Below are positions 47,765 to 62,772 of a stretch of DNA of 64,000 nt, in pieces. The stretch comes from a virus. A program made the translations under genes and the position numbers. The stretch's first letter is position 1. Each line of letters begins with the position of its first letter. The stretch is taken from positions 1-64,000 of IMG/VR virus record IMGVR_UViG_3300036823_000156; one strand, given 5' to 3'. The notes below the pieces were generated by a model. The model was not told the DNA's origin, made no database searches, and was given only the letters and a program-made list of their open reading frames with translations.

Positions 47765-48406
47765 CTAGAATTCGACTTCGCCCGGCTGCAGGACGCCCGC
47801 GGACCGTCCCCGCCGCTTGGTCGACCGGGTGGGGGCCGGGGTCACGCTGGCCCGCACCGCGACCGTCTCGGTCTTCGGCGCGGCGGCGCGGCGGGCGGCC
47901 CGCCGTTCGGCCAGGGTCGTCCGAGCCTTGGCGGGCGTGGACGGCGCGGCGGCCTTCGCAGCGCGCTTCGCGGCTCGCTCCTGTTTCTGCTCTTCCTGGG
48001 CCTTGTAGGCCGCGATGAACGCCTCGCGCACGTTGATCGCGATCCGGCCACGAGGGGCGACCTCGTAGCCGTGCTTGACCGCCCACTGGCGAATCGCGAT
48101 GGCCGAGAATTTGTCGGTGATCTCGGGCGAGGACGTGACCTTGCCGGGCTTTTGGGGCGCACGCTTGGGTTCGCTGGTCGCGTACTGCACGGCGCCGTTG
48201 TGCTTGTCGGTGGCGTCGGCGTACTCCTTCGAGCCGACCCACGCCTGTCGCGCGGTGCTCTGCGCGAGGTGGATGCCCAACTCGAACATGCGTCGGCCGG
48301 TCCGCGACATCTCCAGCCCGGCCTGCTGGACGAACCATTCCGCTTCGTCGGTCTCGATCGGCTTGGGACCACTTTCAATGGCCCGCAGAACCCGTTCCTC
48401 CGCCAT
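47765..48406 (-). CDS. Lsr2-like DNA-binding protein
   Basis: AIRQWAVKHGYEVAPRGRI (Lsr2 C-terminal RGR motif) plus basic tail. Confidence 0.8.
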   Translation of the reverse strand: MAEERVLRAIESGPKPIETDEAEWFVQQAGLEMSRTGRRMFELGIHLAQSTARQAWVGSKEYADATDKHNGAVQYATSEPKRAPQKPGKVTSSPEITDKFSAIAIRQWAVKHGYEVAPRGRIAINVREAFIAAYKAQEEQKQERAAKRAAKAAAPSTPAKARTTLAERRAARRAAAPKTETVAVRASVTPAPTRSTKRRGRSAGVLQPGEVEF

Positions 48407-48436: not shown

Positions 48437-48447
48437 AATGTACACTA
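48437..48447 (-). promoter_or_regulatory. (T)TAGTGTACATT repeated motif
   Basis: AATGTACACTA on +, upstream of the lsr2-like gene. Confidence 0.6.
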
Positions 48448-49053
48448 TCGTTGCCAGGCCTCCACGGCGATGACCGCGTCGTCGTTGTCACGCAGCTGCA
48501 GCGAGTAGGTGTCGTTGTCGACTCCCAGCACGGCGTGCACGATCAGGTTTTTGCGCACAATGCCTTCGACCCAGTGACCGTCGACCGACGCCCAGACCTT
48601 CTCGAAGTACAAGCCCTGCGGGGCACGGTGTACGACCAGCCCGTTCGACACCGGCTTCGGCTTCGCCTCCAACTCGGACAGACGCTGGATCAATGGCTTG
48701 GCCCGCAGCCAGTACAGCGCGCTGGTGGCGAAGTGCTCCCGCAACATCTCGTCCGGGCTCCACGAGCGACCCCGACCGCCCAGTTCGGTGTCACGCGCGG
48801 CCACGCACAACATCGCCTCCTGCGTCTGCAGGTAGCCGGCCCGCCGCTCGAACCACGCGATCAGGTTCGCCCGATGTCCCGGCGCCAGCTGCTTGACCTT
48901 CAGCTTGCGTCCGTCGGCCGGGTACCACCACTTCTTCTGCTCCAGCAACTCCAGTGTGCTGGGACGGCCGTCGGCGTTCCAGCCGGACGTCGCGTTCTTG
49001 TAGTCCTCATCCCGGTCGAACGTCACGTCCTCGTAGTCCGTGTCGTCACCCAC
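48445..49053 (-). CDS. hypothetical protein
   Basis: GAAGGAG RBS. Confidence 0.55.
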   Translation of the reverse strand: MGDDTDYEDVTFDRDEDYKNATSGWNADGRPSTLELLEQKKWWYPADGRKLKVKQLAPGHRANLIAWFERRAGYLQTQEAMLCVAARDTELGGRGRSWSPDEMLREHFATSALYWLRAKPLIQRLSELEAKPKPVSNGLVVHRAPQGLYFEKVWASVDGHWVEGIVRKNLIVHAVLGVDNDTYSLQLRDNDDAVIAVEAWQR

Positions 49054-50813
49054 TAGATCAACTCCTTCGCTCTGCGCCCGTCGAGGGCGAACTTCTGGAC
49101 GGCATCCGCCGCGCGGTTGTCGTTGTGGATCTTGTGCTCGATCGTGCCGGTCGAGCCGAGGTACCAGATGGTGACCTGGTGCATGCGGGACACGCGGTGC
49201 GCGCGGTCCTCGACCTGCTCCTGGTCGTCGGGCACCCAGGTCTGGTCCAGGAAGATCACGTCGTCGGCCGCGTCCAGGGTCAGCGAGACGCCACCGGCCG
49301 TGGTGGTCAGCAGCATGACCTGCGGGGCGCCGTCCTCCTGGAACGAGCGCTTCGCCGTGGCCCGGCGGGCCTTGGACACGTCGCCGGTGATCTTGGTGAC
49401 CTGCACGCCCGCCTCGATCAGCGCGGTCTCGAACAGGTCGATGACCGAGCTGAACTGGCTGGCGACGATCACCTTCTGGTCGGCGTCGCGCTCGGAGAGC
49501 CAGTTGAGCAACCACTTCAGCTTGTTGGAGGGCGTTTCGGGAACGAAGTTGCCCTCGTCGTCCAGCCGACCGGCGGTGGTGGCGAACTGCTTGAGCCGGG
49601 TCAGCACGGCCAACACGCCGTCGGCCTGCAGCTCCCCGCCGTCCAGCTCGACCAGGGCGCGCTGGCGCATGTCCTTGTAGATGCGGGCCTGCTCGGGCTC
49701 CATGTCCAGCCAGATGGCGCCGTTGCCGGCGTAGAACTTCGGCGGCAGGTCGGGGGCCGCGTCCTTCTTCGTGCGGCGCAGCATCACCGAGTCCAGCTCG
49801 GCGTAGAACTCCGGCTTGCGGTGGATCTTCAGGCCGTCGATGATCCGGCCGCGGCCCGCCGCGTCGTCGTAGACCTCGAACCAGTGCTCGACCCACGTCC
49901 AGTACGAGCGGTATCGCTCGGGGTAGAGCCAGTTCAGCGTGCCCCACAGGTTCTCCAGCTTGCCGCGGAACGGCGTGCCCGACATCGCGATCCGCAGGCC
50001 ACCCTCGGCCACCTTCAGTCGACCCAGGCCCTGCCGACGGGCGGCCTGCTTGTAGATGGCACCGGTGCGGGTGATCAACATCTGGTGCGACTCGTCAGCG
50101 ATGATCGAGGCCCACTCGACGTCGTGCAGCTGGGTGTAGCCGTCCTTGAGACGGAACATCTCCGGGTTGCACACCAGCCACTTGCGGCCGGGCGCGGCCA
50201 GGAACGCGGCGATCGTCTTCTCGCGCCTGACCCGGCCGCCGCAGCAGGCGAACACCGCGTCGCCGGGGACCCACCGGTGCAGCTCGGGCTCCCAGGTGAG
50301 GTCGACCGCGGTGGCCGGGGCGATGACCAGGTTCGGCCCGTCGATCCCGCTCTCCAGTACGGCGCCGATCGACTGCAGCGTCTTGCCCAGGCCGGGCTGG
50401 TCGCCCAGCAGGCCGCAGCGCGAGGAGGCCAGCCAGGCCGCGCCGACCTGCTGGTAGGTGCGGGTGCTCATCGCCTCGGCGAGCACCGGGAAGAGGGTGC
50501 GCACGCGATCCACGTCGGCGCCCTCCTGCCCGGCGATCGCCGCGATCCGCTCGCGGCGCTGCTTCTCCTCGATCGCCCACGCGGTCAGCGCCGGGCCGAT
50601 CGAGAGCTGCGTGCCCCACACCCGACGCAGGTCGGTGCAGCTGTACCACGCCAGTGGGTAGGTCCAGGCCTTGTGCGTCTTGTTCCAGGAGTGGCCTTGC
50701 ACCGACTTGCACAGGCGCTTCATCTCCTCGAACGCCGCGTCGTCGCCGTAGGGGACGCGTGGCGTCCGGAGGTGGATCCGGCCGCTGACCAGTTCGATGG
50801 CGGGAAGCTGCAT
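49053..50813 (-). CDS. SNF2-family helicase
   Basis: DQPGLGKT, ADESH, MSGTP, MLRRTK, GGVSLTL, QVEDRAHR. Confidence 0.9.
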   Translation of the reverse strand: MQLPAIELVSGRIHLRTPRVPYGDDAAFEEMKRLCKSVQGHSWNKTHKAWTYPLAWYSCTDLRRVWGTQLSIGPALTAWAIEEKQRRERIAAIAGQEGADVDRVRTLFPVLAEAMSTRTYQQVGAAWLASSRCGLLGDQPGLGKTLQSIGAVLESGIDGPNLVIAPATAVDLTWEPELHRWVPGDAVFACCGGRVRREKTIAAFLAAPGRKWLVCNPEMFRLKDGYTQLHDVEWASIIADESHQMLITRTGAIYKQAARRQGLGRLKVAEGGLRIAMSGTPFRGKLENLWGTLNWLYPERYRSYWTWVEHWFEVYDDAAGRGRIIDGLKIHRKPEFYAELDSVMLRRTKKDAAPDLPPKFYAGNGAIWLDMEPEQARIYKDMRQRALVELDGGELQADGVLAVLTRLKQFATTAGRLDDEGNFVPETPSNKLKWLLNWLSERDADQKVIVASQFSSVIDLFETALIEAGVQVTKITGDVSKARRATAKRSFQEDGAPQVMLLTTTAGGVSLTLDAADDVIFLDQTWVPDDQEQVEDRAHRVSRMHQVTIWYLGSTGTIEHKIHNDNRAADAVQKFALDGRRAKELI

Positions 50814-50820
50814 GCCGGCC

Positions 50821-50832
50821 AATGTACACTAA
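50821..50832 (-). promoter_or_regulatory. TTAGTGTACATT repeated motif
   Basis: Directly upstream of the helicase start. Confidence 0.6.
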
Positions 50833-51080
50833 CCTTCCGCTACGGGTCCAGTCGGTTCCGGCCCGGCGTGCTCACCGAGGCTGAGATGGACGTGGGTGAG
50901 CAGCATCAGCTTCCGGGCGCCCTCCTGCACCTCCGCCAGCTCGTTGGCCGTGAGCTTCTTCAGCCCATGCGCCGCCATCGCGTTGCCCTCGGCGTTCTTG
51001 TCCATCAGACAAGTCAGGGCGGTCGCCGCCGACACCTGCGCGTCGGGCAGGGTCAGGATCTTGTGGGCGTAGGCGTCCAT
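50829..51080 (-). CDS. hypothetical protein
   Basis: GAGGAG RBS. Confidence 0.55.
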   Translation of the reverse strand: MDAYAHKILTLPDAQVSAATALTCLMDKNAEGNAMAAHGLKKLTANELAEVQEGARKLMLLTHVHLSLGEHAGPEPTGPVAEG

Positions 51081-51275: not shown

Positions 51276-51853
51276 CCGCACGGGCATTACTAAATGGCGT
51301 GCGCCAGCATGGTTGGCTCGTGCGGAGCGAGGTCCGCCCGGCCGGCGGGTCTACTTGGCGCACAGGAGGTCATGGCCAACCGGGCGGAGCGAGTTCCCAG
51401 CCTGCGTCCCGCTATGGGTACACGATAATCACTGGCAGACCGGGAGGTGGAGCCGCCCGGCTGGCGACCGATTTCTGGAGCGCGCTCCGTACTGGCCAGC
51501 CGGGCGGAGTAGGTGATCGAGCGGTCAATTTTGGTGTGTCGCGAAGTAATGGCTCGATCGGAAGGGGACCGCCCGGCTGGCGGGGTCGGGGTGGAGTGCG
51601 ATGTGAGCTGGCCAACCGGGCGGAGTGGTTCCGAGGCGGGACACATTTGGGGTGCGCCACGAAATGGCCTCGGTGTGTTGGGCCGCCCGGCTGGTGGCAT
51701 TAGTTGGAGTGCGACACTCTGATGACCAACCGGGCGGAGTAGATGACCGGGCATAACGATATGGAATGCGAATCGCGTTGGCCCGATCAGAAGGGACCGC
51801 CCGGCTGGCGGTTCAAGATGGGTTGTGTCGGATTTCTGGCCAGCCGGGCGGAG
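51276..51853 (-). ncRNA. stem-loop dual-spacer guide array (TIGR-like), 10 units downstream of the Nop-domain gene
   Basis: Each unit on the minus strand is stem-CCA-N8-10-(C/T)G-N4-5-CCA-N8-9-(C/T)G-stem; every second unit uses stem CCGCCCGGYTGG...CCAGCCGGGCGG. Confidence 0.85.
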
Positions 51854-51855
51854 TC

Positions 51856-52782
51856 TCAGGCCGCGTCCTGCAGGTCGGGCGGTCCGAAGCCGTGGGCGAC
51901 GTGGATGGCGCGGGACTGCCGCCACAGGTCGCGCAGGACCTCCTTGGACACGCACCGCAGGGCGCGAGCGTGGATGTGGTTCTTCGACAGCGGGGTGCCG
52001 GCGAGCGCGGGGCTGCCCGAGGGTCCGCATCGGACGCAGGCCAACTCGTGCACGGCGTCGGCGTAGAACTCCTTCTCCTGGTCGTAGACCTCGCGGTACG
52101 GGCCGCCGGACTTCATGCAGGACTCGGAAATCATCCGGCAGCGCATCCGCGCGGTGACCGACCAGTTGACCTTGGTGCCCTTGCGGCGGGCCGGAGCCAG
52201 ACCGGCGATCACGCTGTAGCCGGAGTAGCTCCACAGCTCGGCGATCGTGCGGGGGCGGCCCATCTTGACGTTCCAGTACGGATCCCCGATCGCGGCCAGC
52301 AGTCGACCGACCTGCTTGGCGCCCAGGCCCTTCTGCGCCTCGATCCAGCCGTACAGCGGGTGGTCCTGAATGGTCTTCTGCAGGTTCTTCGTCGCGTTGA
52401 CCTCGGCCCGCTGCATCGGCGGCACGATCAGGCCCATCTGCCACACCATCGGGTTCCAGCCCTTGGGCATGGTGAAGATCTTGCGGTTGGCCGCGGCCTG
52501 GATGGACAGGTGCGTCTCGACCTCGTCGAGCACGGCCTGCACGAGGTCGAAATCCTCCTCGTCCTCGGGCACGTGGATGTTCGGGGGCAGGAAGCCGAAG
52601 CCGACGTCCTTGCCGTCCTTGTTCATCCGGGGCAGCACGAGCTGGCGCAACCGGTTCTGGTTGGCGATGCGCACGCGCTCCATGTCGTCGAGCACGTCGG
52701 CGGCCATCGTCAACGTGGGCGGCGACATCAGTTCGGCGAGGGGATTCGGTACCGCTTCGACCTCTTCGATCTCTTCTGTCAT
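51856..52782 (-). CDS. Nop-domain / IS110 C-terminal-like RNA-binding protein without nuclease domain (TasA-like)
   Basis: RVRIANQNRL coiled coil, KGLGAKQVGRLLAAIGD, LWSYSG, RRKG...NWS, YREVYD..K, HARALR...K..L.DLW; no RuvC/DEDD N-terminus. Confidence 0.8.
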   Translation of the reverse strand: MTEEIEEVEAVPNPLAELMSPPTLTMAADVLDDMERVRIANQNRLRQLVLPRMNKDGKDVGFGFLPPNIHVPEDEEDFDLVQAVLDEVETHLSIQAAANRKIFTMPKGWNPMVWQMGLIVPPMQRAEVNATKNLQKTIQDHPLYGWIEAQKGLGAKQVGRLLAAIGDPYWNVKMGRPRTIAELWSYSGYSVIAGLAPARRKGTKVNWSVTARMRCRMISESCMKSGGPYREVYDQEKEFYADAVHELACVRCGPSGSPALAGTPLSKNHIHARALRCVSKEVLRDLWRQSRAIHVAHGFGPPDLQDAA

Positions 52783-52810
52783 GCACTTTCTCCTTGGGTG
52801 GGTGGGGATT

Positions 52811-53175
52811 CCGACTGACGGGGAGTGCTGGTCGCACGATCGCTGATGGTCAGTCGGAGCGGTGGTCCGCTCGGCCGGCGGGATGACTTGTGTCGTGCTT
52901 CCGTGTTGGCCGACCGAGCGGAACTCGGTCACCCGGCCGACGTCGTCAGCGTTGGTTCGCCGCGCGCTGTTGGTCGACCGGGCAAATCTCTTCGGGTGGA
53001 ACCGCCCGACTGGCGAAAGGTGTTTGGGCAGCGATCGCTCCTGGCCAGCCGGGCGGAGTCGGGCCCGTTGCCGACACGACGATTGTGAGTCGAGTCGTGC
53101 GGTGGTCGGCAACGGGAGTGGGCGTCCGGCCAACGTTCACCCGTGGGGCGCATGGGTCGAGCTGGTCGGCCGGAC
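52811..53175 (-). ncRNA. stem-loop dual-spacer guide array (TIGR-like), 6 units upstream of the Nop-domain gene
   Basis: Same CCA/CG unit grammar, e.g. CCGCCCGGCTGG-CCA-GGAGCGAT-CGCTGC-CCA-AACACCTTT-CG-CCAGTCGGGCGG. Confidence 0.82.
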
Positions 53176-53178
53176 TGA

Positions 53179-53190
53179 AATGTACACTAA
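53179..53190 (-). promoter_or_regulatory. TTAGTGTACATT motif immediately 5' of the stem-loop array
   Basis: CACCGACCTnnGTTAGTGTACATT is shared with the copy at 54904. Confidence 0.65.
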
Positions 53191-53215
53191 CACAGGTCGG
53201 TGTAGCGGTAATGAT

Positions 53216-53656
53216 CCAAGCCTCGCCTCGCCTGGCCGCGCCCTGCCCAGCCTCGCCCCGCCATGCACCGCCTTGCCTAGCACCGCATCGCCAAGCGCGT
53301 CCGGCAGCGGAGTCGAACCGCTGCTACGACCATCCGGACAACCATTCTCCCAGCCTTGCCATGCCGCGCCATGCCTCGCCGGGCACCGCCCAGCCTCGCC
53401 ACGCCGAGCGTGCTGCCCCCGGGAGTCGAACCCGAGATGCGACCATCGCAGCTACCATTCTCCTAGCCACGCCGCGCACCGCCGCGCCCTGCCGCGCCGA
53501 GCCACGCCATGCCAAGCCACGCCCTGCCGAGCGTGCTGCCCCCGGGAGTCGAACCCGAGGTACGACCATCGCAGCCACCATTCTCCTAGCCTGGCCCAGC
53601 CGCGCCCTGCCCTGCCGAGCCACGCCCTGCCCTGCCGAGCCACGCCACGCCCTGCA
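53216..53656 (-). ncRNA. array of four (GGC-NN)n pentamer tracts separated by three tRNA-like linkers
   Basis: Tracts of 14, 14, 12 and 16 pentamers; linkers GGAGAATGGT..GATGGTCG..GGTTCGACTCC with covarying stems. Confidence 0.85.
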
Positions 53657-53664
53657 TCTTCGCG

Positions 53665-54150
53665 CTAGGCGCGAAGTTTCTTGGGAGCGTTGCGCTCCAA
53701 TTCTGCCACTCGCTCGGCGAGTGACCGAGTTTCGCGGCGGCGGCGGCCGTTGATCTCGGCCTTGCGAGCTGCTACGCGTTCCTCGAAGTCCACCTCGGCC
53801 CGCCGTTCGTGTACCAGTTCGGCACGACGGCGTTGTGAGGCATTGATCTTGGCGGCGTGACGGTCGTCAGCGCGTGCAGCTTTCTTGCGTTGCCTGCCGA
53901 TCAGCGGCACGGCGGCGTTCGGCTCCAACACCAGCCACCCGATGTTCTCCTTGGTTTCGACCGTGTTCTTGCCGGCACGACCGAGTTCCAGATTGGCCTT
54001 GATCATCGCGCCTTGGACCGAGTTCCGGCTGGGCGCCTTGCAGTCCTCGATAGCCTGGGCATAGGTGATGACGCCACCCACCTCGGTCTCGCACACGATG
54101 TCGTACAGGATCCGCCAACGTGCCTTGCCGTTCGCAGGTTCGATGTTCAT
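53665..54150 (-). CDS. putative winged-HTH / coiled-coil DNA-binding accessory protein
   Basis: WRILYDIVCETEVGGVITYAQA (HTH-like), basic coiled-coil C-terminus; coupled to the RAMP-like gene. Confidence 0.55.
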   Translation of the reverse strand: MNIEPANGKARWRILYDIVCETEVGGVITYAQAIEDCKAPSRNSVQGAMIKANLELGRAGKNTVETKENIGWLVLEPNAAVPLIGRQRKKAARADDRHAAKINASQRRRAELVHERRAEVDFEERVAARKAEINGRRRRETRSLAERVAELERNAPKKLRA

Positions 54151-54722
54151 TGAGTCACCTCGACCGTGAACCTCCCGTAGAACCGGCGGAACGTGCCGAC
54201 ACCGATCATCTTGCCCGCCTTGGTCGCGATATCTTGGAAGTCCTCGGTCGACAGCACGCGGTCGTCGACGTCGATCTCGAACGCGCAGGACCACTGCGGG
54301 AAGATCGGCCGGACGCGCGGGATGCGCTTGCCCTCCACATTCACCATCAGGCGGCTGACGTACGGACTGGTCGGCCCGTCGCCCCAGAGACCGTCGACAT
54401 CGCGCGGCCCGTCATAGGACAGTGGCGCCTTCAGATCAAAAACCTGAAGAGCTTGAGCGACTTTCTTGCCCGACCGGGTGATGGACCCCGCCTCCATCAG
54501 CGCCCGGAAGATGTTGTCACCCGGCAGGTACGGACCGAGCTCGGCGTTGTGGTACAGCGCCCCGACCCAGGACAACCGGTCGATCTCGGCCCTGTCCTCG
54601 TCGGTCTTGTTGGTTCGTTTGGACGTCAGTTTCTTTACGGCCCTGGTGATCGGCTCATCGGGGTCGGCAAGTCTGATGTTGTGCATGATGAGCGGCGCGA
54701 TGCCGGTCAGCTCGATTCGCAT
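54147..54722 (-). CDS. Cas7/RAMP-like RNA-binding protein
   Basis: N-terminal strand MRIELTGIAPLIMH, 'YLPGDNIFRAL', 'RVRPIFPQWS..F', C-terminal Gly-rich loop AGKMIGVGTFRRFYGRF. Confidence 0.75.
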   Translation of the reverse strand: MRIELTGIAPLIMHNIRLADPDEPITRAVKKLTSKRTNKTDEDRAEIDRLSWVGALYHNAELGPYLPGDNIFRALMEAGSITRSGKKVAQALQVFDLKAPLSYDGPRDVDGLWGDGPTSPYVSRLMVNVEGKRIPRVRPIFPQWSCAFEIDVDDRVLSTEDFQDIATKAGKMIGVGTFRRFYGRFTVEVTQ

Positions 54723-54790
54723 GACTTTCCGTTCTGTGGTCAGTGTTTGACGGCAGTTCCGTCTCACTTCACATCGGACATTGTCCGATC

Positions 54791-54901
54791 GTGCGGGCCG
54801 AGGACTCGAACCTCGGTGTGTGCCGCTCCCGCTTCCTAGCCTGGCCCCGCCAAGCCCTGCCCTGCCGAGCCACGCCCTGCCATGCCGAGCCCTGCCTTGC
54901 A
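54791..54901 (-). ncRNA. leader (GGC-NN)13 tract plus tRNA-like element
   Basis: 13 pentamers, then GCGGG...CCGAGG-TTCGAGT-CCTCGG-CCCGC-AC. Confidence 0.82.
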
Positions 54902-54903
54902 AG

Positions 54904-54937
54904 AATGTACACTAACGTAGGTCGGTGATCGCGTCAA
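54904..54937 (-). promoter_or_regulatory. sigma70-type promoter TTGACG-N17-TAGTGT
   Basis: -35 at 54932-54937, -10 at 54909-54914; predicted start falls at the first pentamer. Confidence 0.7.
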
Positions 54938-58246: not shown

Positions 58247-58482
58247 GACGCGCTCCCCTCGGCCACCGGGGCCGTCGAGACCCACTGGCTGGCGCGGGCG
58301 TCCCATTCCAGCTGCTTGGCCTCGGCGAAGCTGGCGTAGCTGCCCCGGCAGGTCACGGTGGCGATCATGCTGCCGCGGAACGCGCGTTTGGCCTGGTGCT
58401 TGGCCAGCGTGCCGTTGGCCAGCAGGCGAATCGGTTGCACGCAGGCCAGGCACGTGCCGTAGTACGGTTGTGCGGTTGTCAT
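58243..58482 (-). CDS. small Zn-binding hypothetical protein
   Basis: GTCLAC...H...CRGS. Confidence 0.55.
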   Translation of the reverse strand: MTTAQPYYGTCLACVQPIRLLANGTLAKHQAKRAFRGSMIATVTCRGSYASFAEAKQLEWDARASQWVSTAPVAEGSAS

Positions 58483-59258
58483 TCGGCTCCTTCCCAGGTT
58501 GCCTCGTAGATGGTGGCCATCAGGCCGTTGGCCCAGTCGCGGTCGGGCACCGTCCGCAACGGCGACTTCTCGATCGCTTCCTGGATGTCCAGCTCCCAGT
58601 CCTCGATCATCGACAGCACCTCGTCCAGCGTGTAGACGCCGGTGCGGATGTGGTGCAGCAGGGTGCGCTGGGGCTCGGGGATCGGCAGCGTGATGCGGCC
58701 GGTGGACAGCAGCTCGTGTCCCTGGAAACCCAGGCGCACCGCGTGGTAGGCGAACTTCGTGTCGAAGCCGTACTCGGCGATCAGCTCGGGACGGTTGGTG
58801 TGCTGCGACTTCAGGCCCAGCATGCGCAGGCGCTGGTTGTGCAGGTAACCCAGGAACTTGTGCGTGATCTGCTTGGACAGGATGTGTTCGATCGCGTGGT
58901 TCGAGCGCAGCACCCGACCCCAGTGCGTGATGGTCACGGTGTCCTGCTTCGGCGCGAACAGCGGCATGATGACGGTGGGGTTGCCGTCCAGCGCCAGGCG
59001 CATCCACTTGCGCAGCCCGTAGACGTTCAGATCGAGATCGCCCGGTCCGGAACGCACGTGCTGCGGCTGGGTGCGGAACTCGTACTGGTCGAAGCGCTTC
59101 AGCCCGAGCACGTACTCCTTGGGTTCGACGCAGATGCCCATCTCGTCGCGGTCGTCGGTGTCCTCGACGGTCACCCCGTACAGGCCGGAACCGACCTGGG
59201 TCCGCAGGATCGTGAACCGGTTGGCGATGTCCTCGCGGTCCGGCGTCTGGTACTTCAT
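58479..59258 (-). CDS. DNA pol beta-superfamily nucleotidyltransferase (RlaP/YcgL-like)
   Basis: VGSGLYG...DDRDEMGI, GNPT, GFDTKFAYHAVRL, IRTG. Confidence 0.8.
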   Translation of the reverse strand: MKYQTPDREDIANRFTILRTQVGSGLYGVTVEDTDDRDEMGICVEPKEYVLGLKRFDQYEFRTQPQHVRSGPGDLDLNVYGLRKWMRLALDGNPTVIMPLFAPKQDTVTITHWGRVLRSNHAIEHILSKQITHKFLGYLHNQRLRMLGLKSQHTNRPELIAEYGFDTKFAYHAVRLGFQGHELLSTGRITLPIPEPQRTLLHHIRTGVYTLDEVLSMIEDWELDIQEAIEKSPLRTVPDRDWANGLMATIYEATWEGAE

Positions 59259-59259
59259 C

Positions 59260-59475
59260 TCAGCCACCGTTGGCCCCCTTCCAGTTCTGCTCGATGGTGC
59301 GCGCGATCTCCACGACGTCGTCGTCGGCCGACACGCCCGCATCGGCGTGCTCCAGGCCGATCCGGGCCAGCGCCAGCAAGGCCTCGCGCTGCCGGGAGGA
59401 CAGCAGATCCCGAATCAACGAGCTGGCGCTGATCTTCTTGAACTCGGTCTGCTTCGGGATGCCCTTAGTCGTCAT
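59260..59475 (-). CDS. hypothetical protein
   Basis: GGAGG RBS. Confidence 0.5.
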   Translation of the reverse strand: MTTKGIPKQTEFKKISASSLIRDLLSSRQREALLALARIGLEHADAGVSADDDVVEIARTIEQNWKGANGG

Positions 59476-61134: not shown

Positions 61135-62772
61135 TCAGGCGGAATAGAACGGCCAGTTGGCGTTCTGCCCGCGCTCCAGCAGTTCGATCTGTCGGAACGC
61201 GGAGTCGGTCAGACCGCTCATCACGTGCCGGTTGGCCGCGCCCGACGGGGCGTGCCCGCGCCGGTATCCGGCCAGATTGTAGGTGTAGAGCGGGGTGCTG
61301 TCCGGCAGGGCCGAGCCGGGATCTTTGCCCCAGTAGTCGCTGGCCTGCTCGTCGGTCAGGATGACCACGCGGTCGTGCTTGTCGAAGTTCCGGGCCACCG
61401 CCTGGGTGGTTTCCGTGCCGCCCGCCAGGAAGTAGCCCGCACTCTTCCACCGGGCGATGCCACTGAGCAGCGACTCTTCCTTGCGGAACGGGAACTTCGT
61501 CGAGGCGTTGGAGAACGACACGACGGTCGGCTGATCGCACCGATGGGCCAGGGCCAGGCCGAACAGCACCGCCGCGTCCCAGCGGGCCAGCGTGCCGTCC
61601 TTGCTGAACGTCGCGTCCATCGACGCGGACGTGTCCACCAGGATCAGTGTGCGACCCTCCAGCGTCGTGATGTTGTCCAGCGAGTTCTGCAGAGCGCGTT
61701 CCAGCGCGCCCTGCCACCGGCCACCGCTGCCGACGGCGCGGGCACTGGAGAGCAGCTGCATCGGCCACTGGCGGGCGGCCACGATCTCGGCCGGGTCGGA
61801 CAGCCGCGCCACGACGTGCTTGACCGAGGCGGGAGAGATGCCGGCCTGGTCGAAGTTGCGCAGGTTCATCCGCAACGCCTGGAACCCCATCGACGGGATC
61901 AGCGCGTCCCACACCGGGCCGGTCATCTCGCCCTGCAGCCAGCCCGACACGGTCTCCCACGTCATGCCGGCCGACGCGATCTTGTTGGCCGCCTTGACCG
62001 GGTCCTTGGTGAACAGCCTGCGCCGCTTGTCCAGGTCCCACTGCTGCATCTTCCGGTTGGCCGTGATCATCTTCAACTCGGCCGGGATCACGGCGTCCTT
62101 GTGCTTGTAGTGGCGGTCCAGGATGTAGGAGAACAACGCGGACTGCTCGGCGTCACGCGGTCGCGGCCGGCACAACGCGATCACCCGGGCGAAGTCGAAC
62201 TCCCGTTCGCCGGTGTCGTACTTGAGGAACGCGCGCTGCGTGTACATCCGGGTGGCCGCCGAGGCCGCGCCCCGACGCCAGGAGATCGGCAGGGTGTCCT
62301 TGCCCGGGTGCGTGCTGCGCCAGTAGGCCAGGGCCTCGCCGGGCTCGTCCGGGCGCTGCAGGGCCGCGTCGAGGAACAGGCGGCCGGAGAACTCCTCGTG
62401 CCCTTCGTAGCGCTTGAGGCCGTCCAGCGCGTGCGCGGCGGCCACCATCGGGGCGGTGCGCAGGAATCCCTCGGTCCGCAGCCACTTGATCCACGCCATG
62501 GTCCACTGTGGATTCAGCGCGGCGACGTTGCGGGTGAGGGTGGCGAAGCGCGAGTCGCGGTCTTTGGCGGTCTCGTAGAAGGTGTCCTGCCCGACCATGT
62601 TCTGGACCGAGAGCAGGAACAGCTCGGACTGCAGGCCGCGGGCGTAGCCGGGGCCGCCCTCCTCGGTGCGTCCGGTCGGCGTCGACTCGGAGAGGATCGG
62701 GGACATGCCCGGCGCGGACGGCGGCGCCGTCCGCGCCGTGCGGGCGGAGGCCGGTGGATTGAAACGAGCCAT
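61135..62772 (-). CDS. rsr: Ro60/Rsr TROVE-domain protein with C-terminal vWA domain
   Basis: TEEGGPGY, ELFLL...QDTFYE, QRPDEPGE, FLKYD, MTWE, ALRMNLRN, vWA LVDTSASM (DxSxS), GGT, ILTDEQ. Confidence 0.92.
   Translation of the reverse strand: MARFNPPASARTARTAPPSAPGMSPILSESTPTGRTEEGGPGYARGLQSELFLLSVQNMVGQDTFYETAKDRDSRFATLTRNVAALNPQWTMAWIKWLRTEGFLRTAPMVAAAHALDGLKRYEGHEEFSGRLFLDAALQRPDEPGEALAYWRSTHPGKDTLPISWRRGAASAATRMYTQRAFLKYDTGEREFDFARVIALCRPRPRDAEQSALFSYILDRHYKHKDAVIPAELKMITANRKMQQWDLDKRRRLFTKDPVKAANKIASAGMTWETVSGWLQGEMTGPVWDALIPSMGFQALRMNLRNFDQAGISPASVKHVVARLSDPAEIVAARQWPMQLLSSARAVGSGGRWQGALERALQNSLDNITTLEGRTLILVDTSASMDATFSKDGTLARWDAAVLFGLALAHRCDQPTVVSFSNASTKFPFRKEESLLSGIARWKSAGYFLAGGTETTQAVARNFDKHDRVVILTDEQASDYWGKDPGSALPDSTPLYTYNLAGYRRGHAPSGAANRHVMSGLTDSAFRQIELLERGQNANWPFYSA

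What the first reader, a model, noticed from the sequence alone, without database searches (positions are those of the whole stretch)
51276..54937. Two unrelated RNA-guided modules in tandem behind near-identical promoter elements
The pentamer/RAMP module and the stem-loop/Nop module abut (53175/53216). Each begins a few bases after CACCGACCTnnGTTAGTGTACATT (53179-53202, 54904-54927). Both have the layout guide(s)-effector-guides and both lack a nuclease. This suggests a co-regulated programmable-silencing island for inter-phage conflict or host takeover. The Cas4-like nuclease, Sak4-like ATPase and SNF2 helicase nearby are most simply replication/recombination genes, but could supply guide diversification.
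Basis: partly seen in the sequence, partly recalled or inferred. Interest (0 to 1): 0.8.

Follow-up and report, generated by a model that had tools for sequence, protein, structure and literature searches.

The report
VIPR and TIGR-TasA modules in tandem
An uncultured soil actinophage carries two already-described nuclease-free RNA-guided DNA-binding systems side by side (VIPR and TIGR-TasA); they look like separate cassettes, because a near-identical phage lacks the VIPR one.

Summary
On the minus strand of an 84-kb soil phage lie two complete modules.

- **VIPR system, 53179-54927.** It holds a 191-aa Vipr RAMP, a 161-aa Vap and five GGC/NN guide tracts.
- **Stem-loop TIGR-Tas system, 51276-53202.** It holds a 308-aa nuclease-less Tas flanked by 6 + 10 dual-spacer units.

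Both kinds were published in 2025-2026, and tested members act as RNA-guided transcription repressors.

- **Membership.** The Vipr profile hits SUSP1 Vipr (E 6.5e-46). The Tas scores 199 bits on NCBIfam TIGR_Tas_endo (cut-off 100).
- **The shared element is not module-specific.** Its 13-nt core occurs 11 times in the genome, usually at gene boundaries. Only the extra 11 nt are private to these two copies, and they mark 24-bp direct repeats around the VIPR module.
- **The VIPR module is dispensable.** In a second soil metagenome, a 36.9-kb contig of a near-identical phage joins 53178 to 54904, removing exactly this 1,725-bp cassette.
- **The pairing is rare.** No Tas was found beside Vipr in 92 related loci, and no Vipr beside Tas in 69.
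- **No target was found** for any guide.

Verdict: new members of known kinds, adjacent by cassette insertion; co-regulation is unproven. A side finding is that the guide tails of this VIPR clade mimic tRNA. Earlier scan notes report array-less Tas-like/Vipr-like gene pairs in other phages; I did not test them.

The parts
54904..54927 (-). Copy A of the 24-nt direct repeat. Its last 13 nt are the promoter-like core GTTAGTGTACATT. The TAG inside the core (54912-54914) is the stop codon of the upstream 142-aa gene.
   Evidence: (D8).
54787..54901 (-). vrRNA1: a tract of 13 pentamers (12 GGC-NN units after a TGCAA lead), 54837-54901, followed by a tRNA-like tail at 54787-54836.
54147..54722 (-). 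vipr gene, encoding a 191-aa minimal RAMP protein.
   Evidence: phrog_4652. AF2 model pLDDT 91.6. Foldseek hits to Csm3/Cas7. Profile hit on SUSP1 Vipr YP_009199429.1, E 6.5e-46. Pairwise 29% identity, E 3e-29.
53665..54150 (-). vap accessory gene, 161 aa. Its start overlaps the vipr stop (ATGA).
   Evidence: A homologue lies directly after vipr in 23 related loci. Weak match to SUSP1 Vap1, E 3e-4. N-terminal winged-helix-like similarity at TM about 0.4. No Pfam hit.
53294..53656 (-). vrRNA2, vrRNA3 and vrRNA4. Tracts lie at 53587-53656, 53464-53533 and 53351-53410. Each is followed by a tRNA-like tail. The period is 123 nt.
   Evidence: (D2).
53218..53292 (-). vrRNA5-like tract of 15 pentamers, three of them TGC variants. 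It has no tRNA-like tail and runs into repeat copy B.
53179..53202 (-). Copy B of the 24-nt direct repeat, with the same promoter-like core. It heads the TIGR module and keeps a remnant of the last codons of the upstream 142-aa gene.
   Evidence: The junction 53178/54904 appears in run X2.
52808..53174 (-). Upstream TIGR array of 6 stem-loop tigRNA units. Each reads: stem, CCA, 8-nt spacer A, 9-11-nt loop ending CCA or ACA, 8-nt spacer B, stem.
51856..52782 (-). tas gene, encoding a 308-aa Nop-domain protein without a nuclease domain (TasA type).
   Evidence: NF052498, 199 bits, E 8.9e-59. PDB 9mty and TasH by sequence and by fold. All-helical model. Alignment A2.
51276..51853 (-). Downstream TIGR array of 10 stem-loop tigRNA units. 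Conserved stems (CCGCCCGGYUGGCCA / GCCAGCCGGGCGG) alternate with variable stems.
   Evidence: (D3-D5). Fold z-score -5.1 for the unit at 51790-51857.
50821..50833 (-). Context: a further copy of the core motif, 7 nt ahead of the ATG of the SNF2 helicase gene. Its TAG is the stop of the 83-aa ORF upstream.

Best explanation
The stretch holds two separate, complete phage systems of known kinds, lying head to tail on the minus strand.

Module A is a VIPR system.
- Inferred: transcription starts a few bases after the promoter-like motif and yields vrRNA1, vipr-vap mRNA and vrRNA2-5.
- By analogy with SUSP1: Vipr protomers polymerise on each (GGC-NN) tract of 11-15 units. The NN pairs read DNA with a one-base skip, and the bound filament blocks transcription.
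- Shown here: each tract is capped by a tRNA-like minihelix instead of the SUSP1 pseudoknot.
- Inferred: the minihelix probably also marks processing sites for host tRNA-end enzymes.

Module B is a stem-loop TIGR-TasA system.
- Shown here: there are sixteen tigRNA units, each with two 8-9-nt spacers behind CCA boxes.
- By analogy with tested TasA and dead TasR: each tigRNA would load a Tas dimer whose spacers pair with opposite DNA strands of a 16-18-bp site and repress it without cutting.

The two modules are independent cassettes. VIPR is a 1,725-bp insert bounded by 24-bp direct repeats in an accessory slot of the early/replication region. Adjacency therefore reflects cassette insertion at a gene-boundary motif, not an integrated two-part machine.
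For: Identity of the VIPR module:
- Profile A1 hits SUSP1 YP_009199429.1 at E 6.5e-46. Pairwise identity is 29%, E 3e-29.
- The fold is a RAMP.
- There are five GGC/NN tracts on the gene strand.
- 82 of 93 related Vipr loci carry such tracts on the vipr strand, and only 1 on the other strand.
- The one-upstream, several-downstream layout matches SUSP1 as described in bioRxiv 10.64898/2026.04.26.720920.

Identity of the TIGR-TasA module:
- NF052498 scores 199 bits against a cut-off of 100.
- The fold matches 9MTY and TasH.
- There are 16 units with CCA boxes, dual 8-nt spacers and palindromic stems.
- This matches the stem-loop class in PMC12045711 and 10.64898/2026.09.09.750476.

Independence of the modules:
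- In run X2 a 36.9-kb contig at depth 20.5 joins 53178 to 54904, with 13 shared letters. Contigs at depth about 4 carry VIPR.
- There is no co-occurrence in 161 loci or 100 whole records. Positive controls ring.
- GC3 of vipr and vap is 0.84 and 0.75, against 0.94-0.96 for tas and SNF2.
- In X2 the flank upstream of the cassette differs at 6 of about 500 positions, the downstream flank at 3 of about 2,400.

Motif generality.
Against: - No RNA data: no transcription start, processing site or RNP was observed, and no listed run holding the stretch is on record as RNA.
- No natural target was found for any of the 5 vrRNAs or 16 tigRNAs, so silencing is by analogy only.
- P0005 (Vipr, 81% identical) and P0091 (Tas, 59% identical) each sit on a single Logan contig of exactly 11,916 nt. 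They are probably on the same contig, so the pairing may recur in at least one relative.
- Earlier scan notes report Tas-like/Vipr-like gene pairs in other phage lineages (untested). This would argue for some functional link.
- No terminator separates the modules, so read-through co-transcription is possible.
Confidence: 0.8

Rival explanations
1. One reading: the two modules form one co-regulated silencing island. They would be switched on together by a shared private control element and aimed at the same competitor or host functions.
For: - The two copies share 22 of 24 nt, beyond the 13-nt core.
- Both modules sit in the same early/replication block, with the same orientation and no terminator between them.
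- A probable second co-occurrence exists on an 11,916-nt Logan contig.
- Earlier scan notes describe Tas-like/Vipr-like pairs elsewhere (untested).
Against: - The extra 11 nt are the last codons of the upstream gene, repeated as a remnant. That is the signature of an insertion or deletion boundary, not of a control site.
- The core motif heads many unrelated genes.
- VIPR is absent from the dominant near-identical phage in X2 while TIGR-Tas stays.
- There is no co-occurrence in 161 loci or 100 records.
- No shared or cross target was found.
Confidence: 0.12
2. One or both modules are decaying relics that no longer work. Under this view the degenerate fifth tract and the missing targets reflect loss of function.
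For: - vrRNA5 has three TGC variants and no tail.
- No target was found in any searched set.
- VIPR is lost in a sister phage.
Against: - All three reading frames are intact, with invariant family residues kept.
- The models are confident, with pLDDT 91.6 and 86.0.
- Four tails keep both stems through compensatory changes.
- All 16 tigRNA units keep boxes and stems.
- The two substitutions seen in vrRNA3 between strains both fall on NN positions.
- The searched sets do not include the unknown host or its mobile elements.
Confidence: 0.06
3. The repeated elements are not guides but DNA-level features, for example protein-binding iterons or recombination sites. Under this view the RAMP and Nop proteins would serve replication or recombination.
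For: - The modules lie among replication and recombination genes: SNF2 helicase and a PD-(D/E)XK nuclease.
- Earlier scan notes describe array-less Tas-like/Vipr-like pairs in replication operons (untested).
Against: - The arrays are strand-specific. GGY tracts lie on the vipr strand in 82 of 93 loci and on the other strand in 1.
- The tails and tigRNA stems covary as RNA helices, with G-U pairs.
- Direct homologues were shown to bind these RNAs.
Confidence: 0.02

Closest known systems
VIPR systems (Viral Interference Programmable Repeat), type II as in Escherichia phage SUSP1. Sources: bioRxiv 10.64898/2026.04.26.720920, 10.64898/2026.04.26.720927 and 10.64898/2026.10.15.759431.
   Same: - The Vipr is homologous over its full length.
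- A vap gene lies directly downstream.
- Guides consist of 11-15 GGY/NN pentamers on the gene strand.
- One guide lies upstream and several downstream.
- A structured 3' tail follows each tract.
- The system is phage-borne and has no nuclease.
   Different: - The repeat is GGC rather than mostly GGT.
- The tail is a tRNA-like acceptor/T-arm minihelix instead of the SUSP1 pseudoknot.
- There is a fifth, degenerate, tail-less tract.
- The host is an unknown high-GC actinobacterium.
- Targets are unknown, whereas SUSP1 guides aim at a satellite.
Stem-loop TIGR-Tas with nuclease-less TasA. Sources: Faure et al. 2025, PMC12045711; Xu et al. 2026, bioRxiv 10.64898/2026.09.09.750476.
   Same: - The Tas has a Nop domain and a coiled coil.
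- Arrays lie on both sides of tas.
- Each unit is a palindromic stem enclosing box C (CCA), spacer A, a loop of about 9 nt, box C, and spacer B.
- There is no nuclease domain.
- The system is phage-borne.
   Different: - Box D reads mostly CG rather than UG.
- Conserved and variable stems alternate, giving a period of about 115 nt.
- The protein has an insertion of about 55 residues at the coiled-coil tip and a conserved C-x2-C ... H-x-H set.
- The spacers found here are 8 nt long between the boxes.
tRNA-like processing or capping elements: MALAT1 mascRNA, MHV68 tRNA-miRNA units, bacterial YrlA Y RNA. This comparison rests on my own knowledge and was not tested here.
   Same: An acceptor-like stem stacked on a T arm with a TTCGA loop sits at the 3' end of a functional RNA and between units of an array.
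   Different: - There is no anticodon arm.
- The acceptor stem has only 5-7 bp.
- ARAGORN and Rfam do not call it.
- Cleavage by RNase P or RNase Z is not shown.
Class 1 CRISPR-Cas backbones (Cas7/Csm3)
   Same: The RAMP fold. Foldseek gives probability 1.0 and TM about 0.5.
   Different: There is no CRISPR array, no other cas genes, a 5-nt rather than 6-nt periodicity, and a non-contiguous guide.

Membership tests
VIPR | Vipr protein homologous to the characterised Vipr of phage SUSP1 (YP_009199429.1) | tested here: met
   Profile A1 hits NC_028808 28492-29049(-) at E 6.5e-46 over 2-189 of 190 positions. That gene is YP_009199429.1. Pairwise comparison gives 29% identity over 190 aa, E 3e-29.
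VIPR | Minimal RAMP fold with a glycine-rich loop | tested here: met
   The AF2 model has pLDDT 91.6. Foldseek gives Csm3/Cas7 at probability 1.0. G170, G174, G176 and G183 are invariant.
VIPR | vrRNAs of about 9-16 GGY/NN pentamers flanking vipr on its strand | tested here: met
   Five tracts of 11-15 pentamers lie on the minus strand only. The same holds in 82 of 93 related loci.
VIPR | Conserved structured 3' tail after each tract | tested here: met
   Four of five tracts carry a tail that folds as an acceptor stem plus T arm. The fold is kept through compensatory changes. Its form differs from the SUSP1 pseudoknot.
VIPR | Adjacent vap accessory gene | tested here: met
   A 161-aa gene overlaps the vipr stop. 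Homologues follow vipr in 23 loci. There is a weak match to SUSP1 Vap1, E 3e-4.
VIPR | Guides match natural targets by the one-base-skip rule (at least 80% of NN positions) | tested here: inconclusive
   No hit above background was found in the own genome, in 2 Mb of related loci, in IMG/VR seeds, or (vrRNA2 only) in 401 Actinomycetes genomes. The host and its mobile elements are unknown.
VIPR | vrRNA expression and Vipr-vrRNA RNP formation | not testable with these tools
   No listed run holding the stretch is on record as RNA.
TIGR-Tas | Tas protein with a Nop domain, scoring above the curated family cut-off | tested here: met
   NF052498 scores 199 bits against a cut-off of 100, E 8.9e-59, covering model positions 1-215. 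In the genome it scores 197.4 bits. The fold matches 9MTY and TasH.
TIGR-Tas | Array units with two 8-12-nt spacers, each preceded by box C (CCA) and followed by box D | tested here: met
   There are 16 units. The first box is CCA in 15 and TCA in 1. The second box is CCA or ACA. Spacers are 8 nt and are followed by CG or UG in most units.
TIGR-Tas (stem-loop class) | Palindromic stems in place of edge repeats, with arrays upstream and/or downstream of tas | tested here: met
   Stem duplex energies run from -14.7 to -33.4 kcal/mol. The fold z-score is -5.1 for the unit at 51790-51857. Six units lie upstream and ten downstream.
TasR / TasH (nuclease-bearing Tas) | N-terminal RuvC or HNH domain | tested here: not met
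   The Nop match starts at residue 24. The model is all-helical, with no beta-sheet domain. Sequence alignment to 9mty covers only its residues 151-261. The protein is therefore filed as TasA type.
TIGR-Tas (stem-loop class) | CUU motif at the stem base as a processing site | tested here: inconclusive
   CUU follows the 3' arm of some conserved-stem units, for example 'gcggtcccttct', but not all. Processing was not observable.
CRISPR-Cas | CRISPR array of 25-36-nt direct repeats with further cas genes | tested here: not met
   No such repeats, no Rfam CRISPR repeat family, and no cas families in Pfam or NCBIfam.
tRNA genes | Full cloverleaf with an anticodon arm | tested here: not met
   ARAGORN finds 0 genes. 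Rfam gives no tRNA hit even at E 10. Only the acceptor stem, T arm and a GG linker are present.

The most novel reading that the evidence does not exclude
The pairing may not be an accident. Phages may repeatedly combine a Vipr-type and a Tas-type DNA binder beside their replication genes. Here the two would act together, for example as a long-footprint and a short-footprint silencer aimed at the same rival element. Their guides would be matured by host tRNA-end enzymes recruited through the tRNA-like tails. This remains open for three reasons:
- No targets were found.
- A probable second co-occurrence exists on an 11,916-nt contig.
- Earlier scan notes describe Tas-like/Vipr-like pairs in other phages.
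Probability: 0.12. Interest if true: 0.7.

Novelty: new member of a known kind. Interest (0 to 1): 0.42.

Why it matters
- **A rare combination.** Both systems are very recent discoveries whose natural roles are still open. A phage carrying both, each with full guide sets, is a natural test bed. It can show whether VIPR (footprint of about 40 bp, gapped code) and TIGR-TasA (16-18 bp, two strands) do redundant or complementary jobs in inter-element conflict.
- **A natural comparison.** The VIPR-plus and VIPR-minus sister genomes give a ready-made comparison. They also show how such modules move: as promoter-bounded cassettes.
- **A testable maturation route.** The tRNA-like guide tails, shared with the isolated phages Gordonia phage Trine and Mycobacterium phage LittleE, suggest how vrRNAs mature in Actinobacteria. 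The route can be tested in Mycobacterium smegmatis.
- **Scope.** None of this changes the known mechanisms. It extends them to a new host group and a new arrangement.

Tried and rejected
The contigs of the closest relatives could therefore not be fetched: Vipr at 78-83% identity, Tas at 59-80%, including the 11,916-nt Logan contig that probably holds both.
- **The one metagenome scan** returned only distant Vipr relatives, at most 64% identical over part of the protein. The genome-contig scan returned one Amycolatopsis antarctica prophage with no Tas.
- **megablast against deposited phages:** no match. A Tas single-protein scan of IMG/VR found none.
- **vrRNA targets by the one-base-skip rule:**
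  - none at 72% or more in the own genome;
  - background level in 2 Mb of related loci;
  - IMG/VR exact 10-unit seeds gave 0 hits for vrRNA2, 3 and 4;
  - vrRNA1 gave one hit, in a parB-like gene of a 48% GC phage (L171, 22 of 26 NN). The skip falls on codon position 1, and about 0.1 hits are expected by chance (my estimate). I rejected it as chance;
  - vrRNA2 gave none in 401 Actinomycetes genomes at up to 2 mismatches.
- **tigRNA targets (spacer A + reverse complement of spacer B, gap 0-2):** none at up to 1 mismatch in the own genome. One-mismatch hits in related loci equalled those of control geometries.
- **Expression:** no RNA holder listed.
- **Other searches:**
  - Rfam gave nothing at gathering score and only a chance lncRNA match at E 4.7.
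  - The consensus sigma-70 promoter and terminator scan found nothing on the minus strand.
  - SNF2 helicase lies near Tas in only 3 of 69 loci, so there is no conserved link.
- **My first guess for the Tas** was an IS110-type transposase (PHROG label 'transposase'). I dropped it because there is no DEDD domain and the TIGR-Tas family match is strong.
- **A low-depth X2 joint, 53641 to 54844,** would be a form with the guide tracts but without vipr-vap. At depth 3 with 36 letters on the shorter side, it is too weak to use.

Full report
**Source and orientation.** The window is the first 64 kb of an 83,959-bp IMG/VR virus record with 67% GC. Two soil metagenomes from different studies hold it. 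Genes between 44 and 64 kb run on the minus strand. Nearby genes point to an actinobacterial host:
- The SNF2 helicase at 49053-50822 is 42-44% identical to helicases of Nocardia and Mycobacterium phages.
- An Lsr2-domain protein lies at 47765-48406.

**Observation.** The 24-nt element occurs at 53179-53202 and 54904-54927, 22 of 24 identical. The first guide of each module begins 3-8 nt after it. The last GGC/NN tract ends at 53218 and the first TIGR stem starts near 53174, so the modules abut across the element. Both modules have guides on both sides of their protein genes. The description is confirmed.

**Module A is a VIPR system.**
- *Protein.* The 191-aa protein (54147-54722) has no Pfam or NCBIfam hit but belongs to phrog_4652.
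  - Its AF2 model (pLDDT 91.6) matches Csm3/Cas7 RAMPs.
  - An earlier scan note used the word 'VIPR'. That led me to three 2026 preprints describing Viral Interference Programmable Repeat systems: a minimal RAMP (Vipr), an accessory Vap, and vrRNAs of alternating GGY/NN that read DNA with a one-base skip and silence transcription.
  - I tested membership directly. A profile of the protein's relatives hits phage SUSP1 at the gene for YP_009199429.1, the Vipr used in those papers, at E 6.5e-46. Pairwise identity is 29% over the full length.
- *Guides.* Five GGC/NN tracts of 11-15 pentamers lie on the gene strand, one upstream and four downstream, as in SUSP1.
- *Relatives.* 82 of 93 related loci have such tracts on the vipr strand, and only one has a tract on the other strand.
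- *Vap.* The 161-aa gene overlapping the vipr stop recurs after vipr in 23 loci. It is weakly similar to SUSP1 Vap1 and has a winged-helix-like N-terminus.

**Module B is a stem-loop TIGR-TasA system.**
- *Protein.* The 308-aa protein (51856-52782) scores 199 bits on NCBIfam TIGR_Tas_endo, against a cut-off of 100. It matches TasR (9MTY) and TasH by sequence and fold.
- *No nuclease.* Its model is all-helical: a coiled coil with a tip insertion plus the Nop C-terminal helices. There is no N-terminal nuclease domain, so it is of TasA type.
- *Arrays.* I parsed 16 units, six upstream and ten downstream. Each has a palindromic stem, CCA, an 8-nt spacer A, a 9-11-nt loop ending in CCA or ACA, an 8-nt spacer B, and the closing stem.
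- *Match to the literature.* CCA is the published box C. The architecture matches the stem-loop class, for which TasA and dead TasR were shown to be RNA-guided repressors.
- *Fold.* One unit folds at z = -5.1.

**The shared element.** The core GTTAGTGTACATT occurs 11 times in the genome at up to 2 mismatches, and 8 times in the window against 0.06 expected. Eight of the eleven copies are co-oriented with the local genes; three sit in divergent intergenic regions.
- Its TAG is the stop codon of the upstream ORF at three sites: 54912, 50829 and 48445.
- The SNF2 ATG lies 7 nt behind one copy. This fits a -10-like TACATT with a leaderless start. That reading is inference.
- It is therefore a general gene-boundary and promoter-like motif, not a private switch.
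- The 11 further shared bases at the two copies are the last codons of the 142-aa gene upstream of VIPR. They are repeated as a remnant in front of the TIGR module.

**Independence.** In run X2 a 36.9-kb contig at depth 20.5 joins 53178 directly to 54904, with 13 letters common to both sides. This removes exactly the 1,725 bp between the repeats. Contigs at depth about 4 in the same run carry the VIPR genes.
- The same contig has about 990 extra bases in the upstream TIGR array. They include a new spacer-loop-spacer, so the array differs between near-identical phages.
- Divergence is higher upstream of the cassette (6 differences in about 500 nt) than downstream (3 in about 2,400 nt).
- GC3 of vipr and vap is lower than that of their neighbours.

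**Survey of the pairing.**
- No Tas lies within 6-10 kb of 92 Vipr genes, and no Vipr within 10 kb of 69 Tas genes.
- 0 of 50 Vipr-bearing records hold a Tas, and 0 of 50 Tas-bearing records hold a Vipr. Positive controls ring.
- One hint of recurrence remains. A Vipr at 81% identity and a Tas at 59% each sit on a single Logan contig of exactly 11,916 nt.

**Guide tails.** Four tracts end in a tail with these parts: a 5-7-bp acceptor-like stem, a linker holding a conserved GG, a 6-bp stem, a TTCGANY loop, and a discriminator-like A.
- Across 47 such elements from 19 related loci and this window, 44 have the acceptor stem, against a mean of 6.2 in shuffles.
- They show 23 distinct acceptor stems and 22 distinct T stems.
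- The carriers include Gordonia phage Trine, Mycobacterium phage LittleE and an Amycolatopsis prophage.
- SUSP1 tails lack this form.
- The VIPR preprints' main texts do not contain the word 'tRNA'. Their figures and supplements were not available.

**Targets.** None were found. Details are under Tried and rejected.

**Verdict.** These are two new members of known kinds. They are adjacent because a VIPR cassette sits in an accessory slot in front of a TIGR-TasA module. Functional coupling is unproven and, on present evidence, unlikely.

Noticed in passing
window 53294-53350, 53407-53463, 53530-53586, 54787-54836 (minus strand); also L009-L012, L016, L017, L031, L170 and others: vrRNA tails of this VIPR clade mimic the acceptor/T-arm half of a tRNA, with a GG linker. 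44 of 47 elements keep the acceptor stem through many compensatory changes. SUSP1 tails are pseudoknots instead. This may point to maturation by host tRNA-end enzymes.
   Followed up: yes
window 53179-54903: The whole VIPR module is a 1,725-bp cassette between 24-bp direct repeats. A near-identical phage in a second soil metagenome lacks exactly this stretch, and minor contigs there carry it.
   Followed up: yes
window 53050-53122 (upstream TIGR array): The VIPR-less sister contig has about 990 extra bases in the upstream TIGR array, including a new spacer-loop-spacer unit. The array content therefore differs between near-identical phages.
   Followed up: partly
window 61135-62772 (-) and 58479-59342 (-): A TROVE/Ro60 + vWA protein (Rsr-like) and an RlaP nucleotidyltransferase of the RNA-repair pathway are encoded a few kb away. 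The Rfam gathering scan found no Y RNA.
   Followed up: no
They look like ordinary actinophage regulation and recombination genes.
   Followed up: no
window 48437-48449, 50821-50833, 54904-54916: The TAG inside the promoter-like core GTTAGTGTACATT serves as the stop codon of the upstream gene at three sites. The motif therefore marks gene boundaries.
   Followed up: partly
window 53587-53656 and 54837-54901: vrRNA1 and vrRNA2 share the NN run AG-GT-TC-AG-AG and the ending CA-TA. vrRNA2 holds an internal 20-nt duplication (GT-TC-AG-AG twice). This suggests that guides arise by duplication and divergence.
   Followed up: partly
window 53509 and 53520: The two substitutions seen in vrRNA3 between the two soil populations both fall on NN (guide) positions, not on GGC.
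   Followed up: no
window 53665-54722: vipr and vap have lower third-position GC (0.84 and 0.75) than tas and the SNF2 gene (0.94 and 0.96). This fits a more recent arrival of the cassette.
   Followed up: partly
Tas protein residues 249-271 (window 51856-52782): A C-x2-C ... H-x-H set (C249, C252, H269, H271) is invariant in the 13 aligned relatives. It may be a zinc site in the Nop C-terminal region.
   Followed up: no
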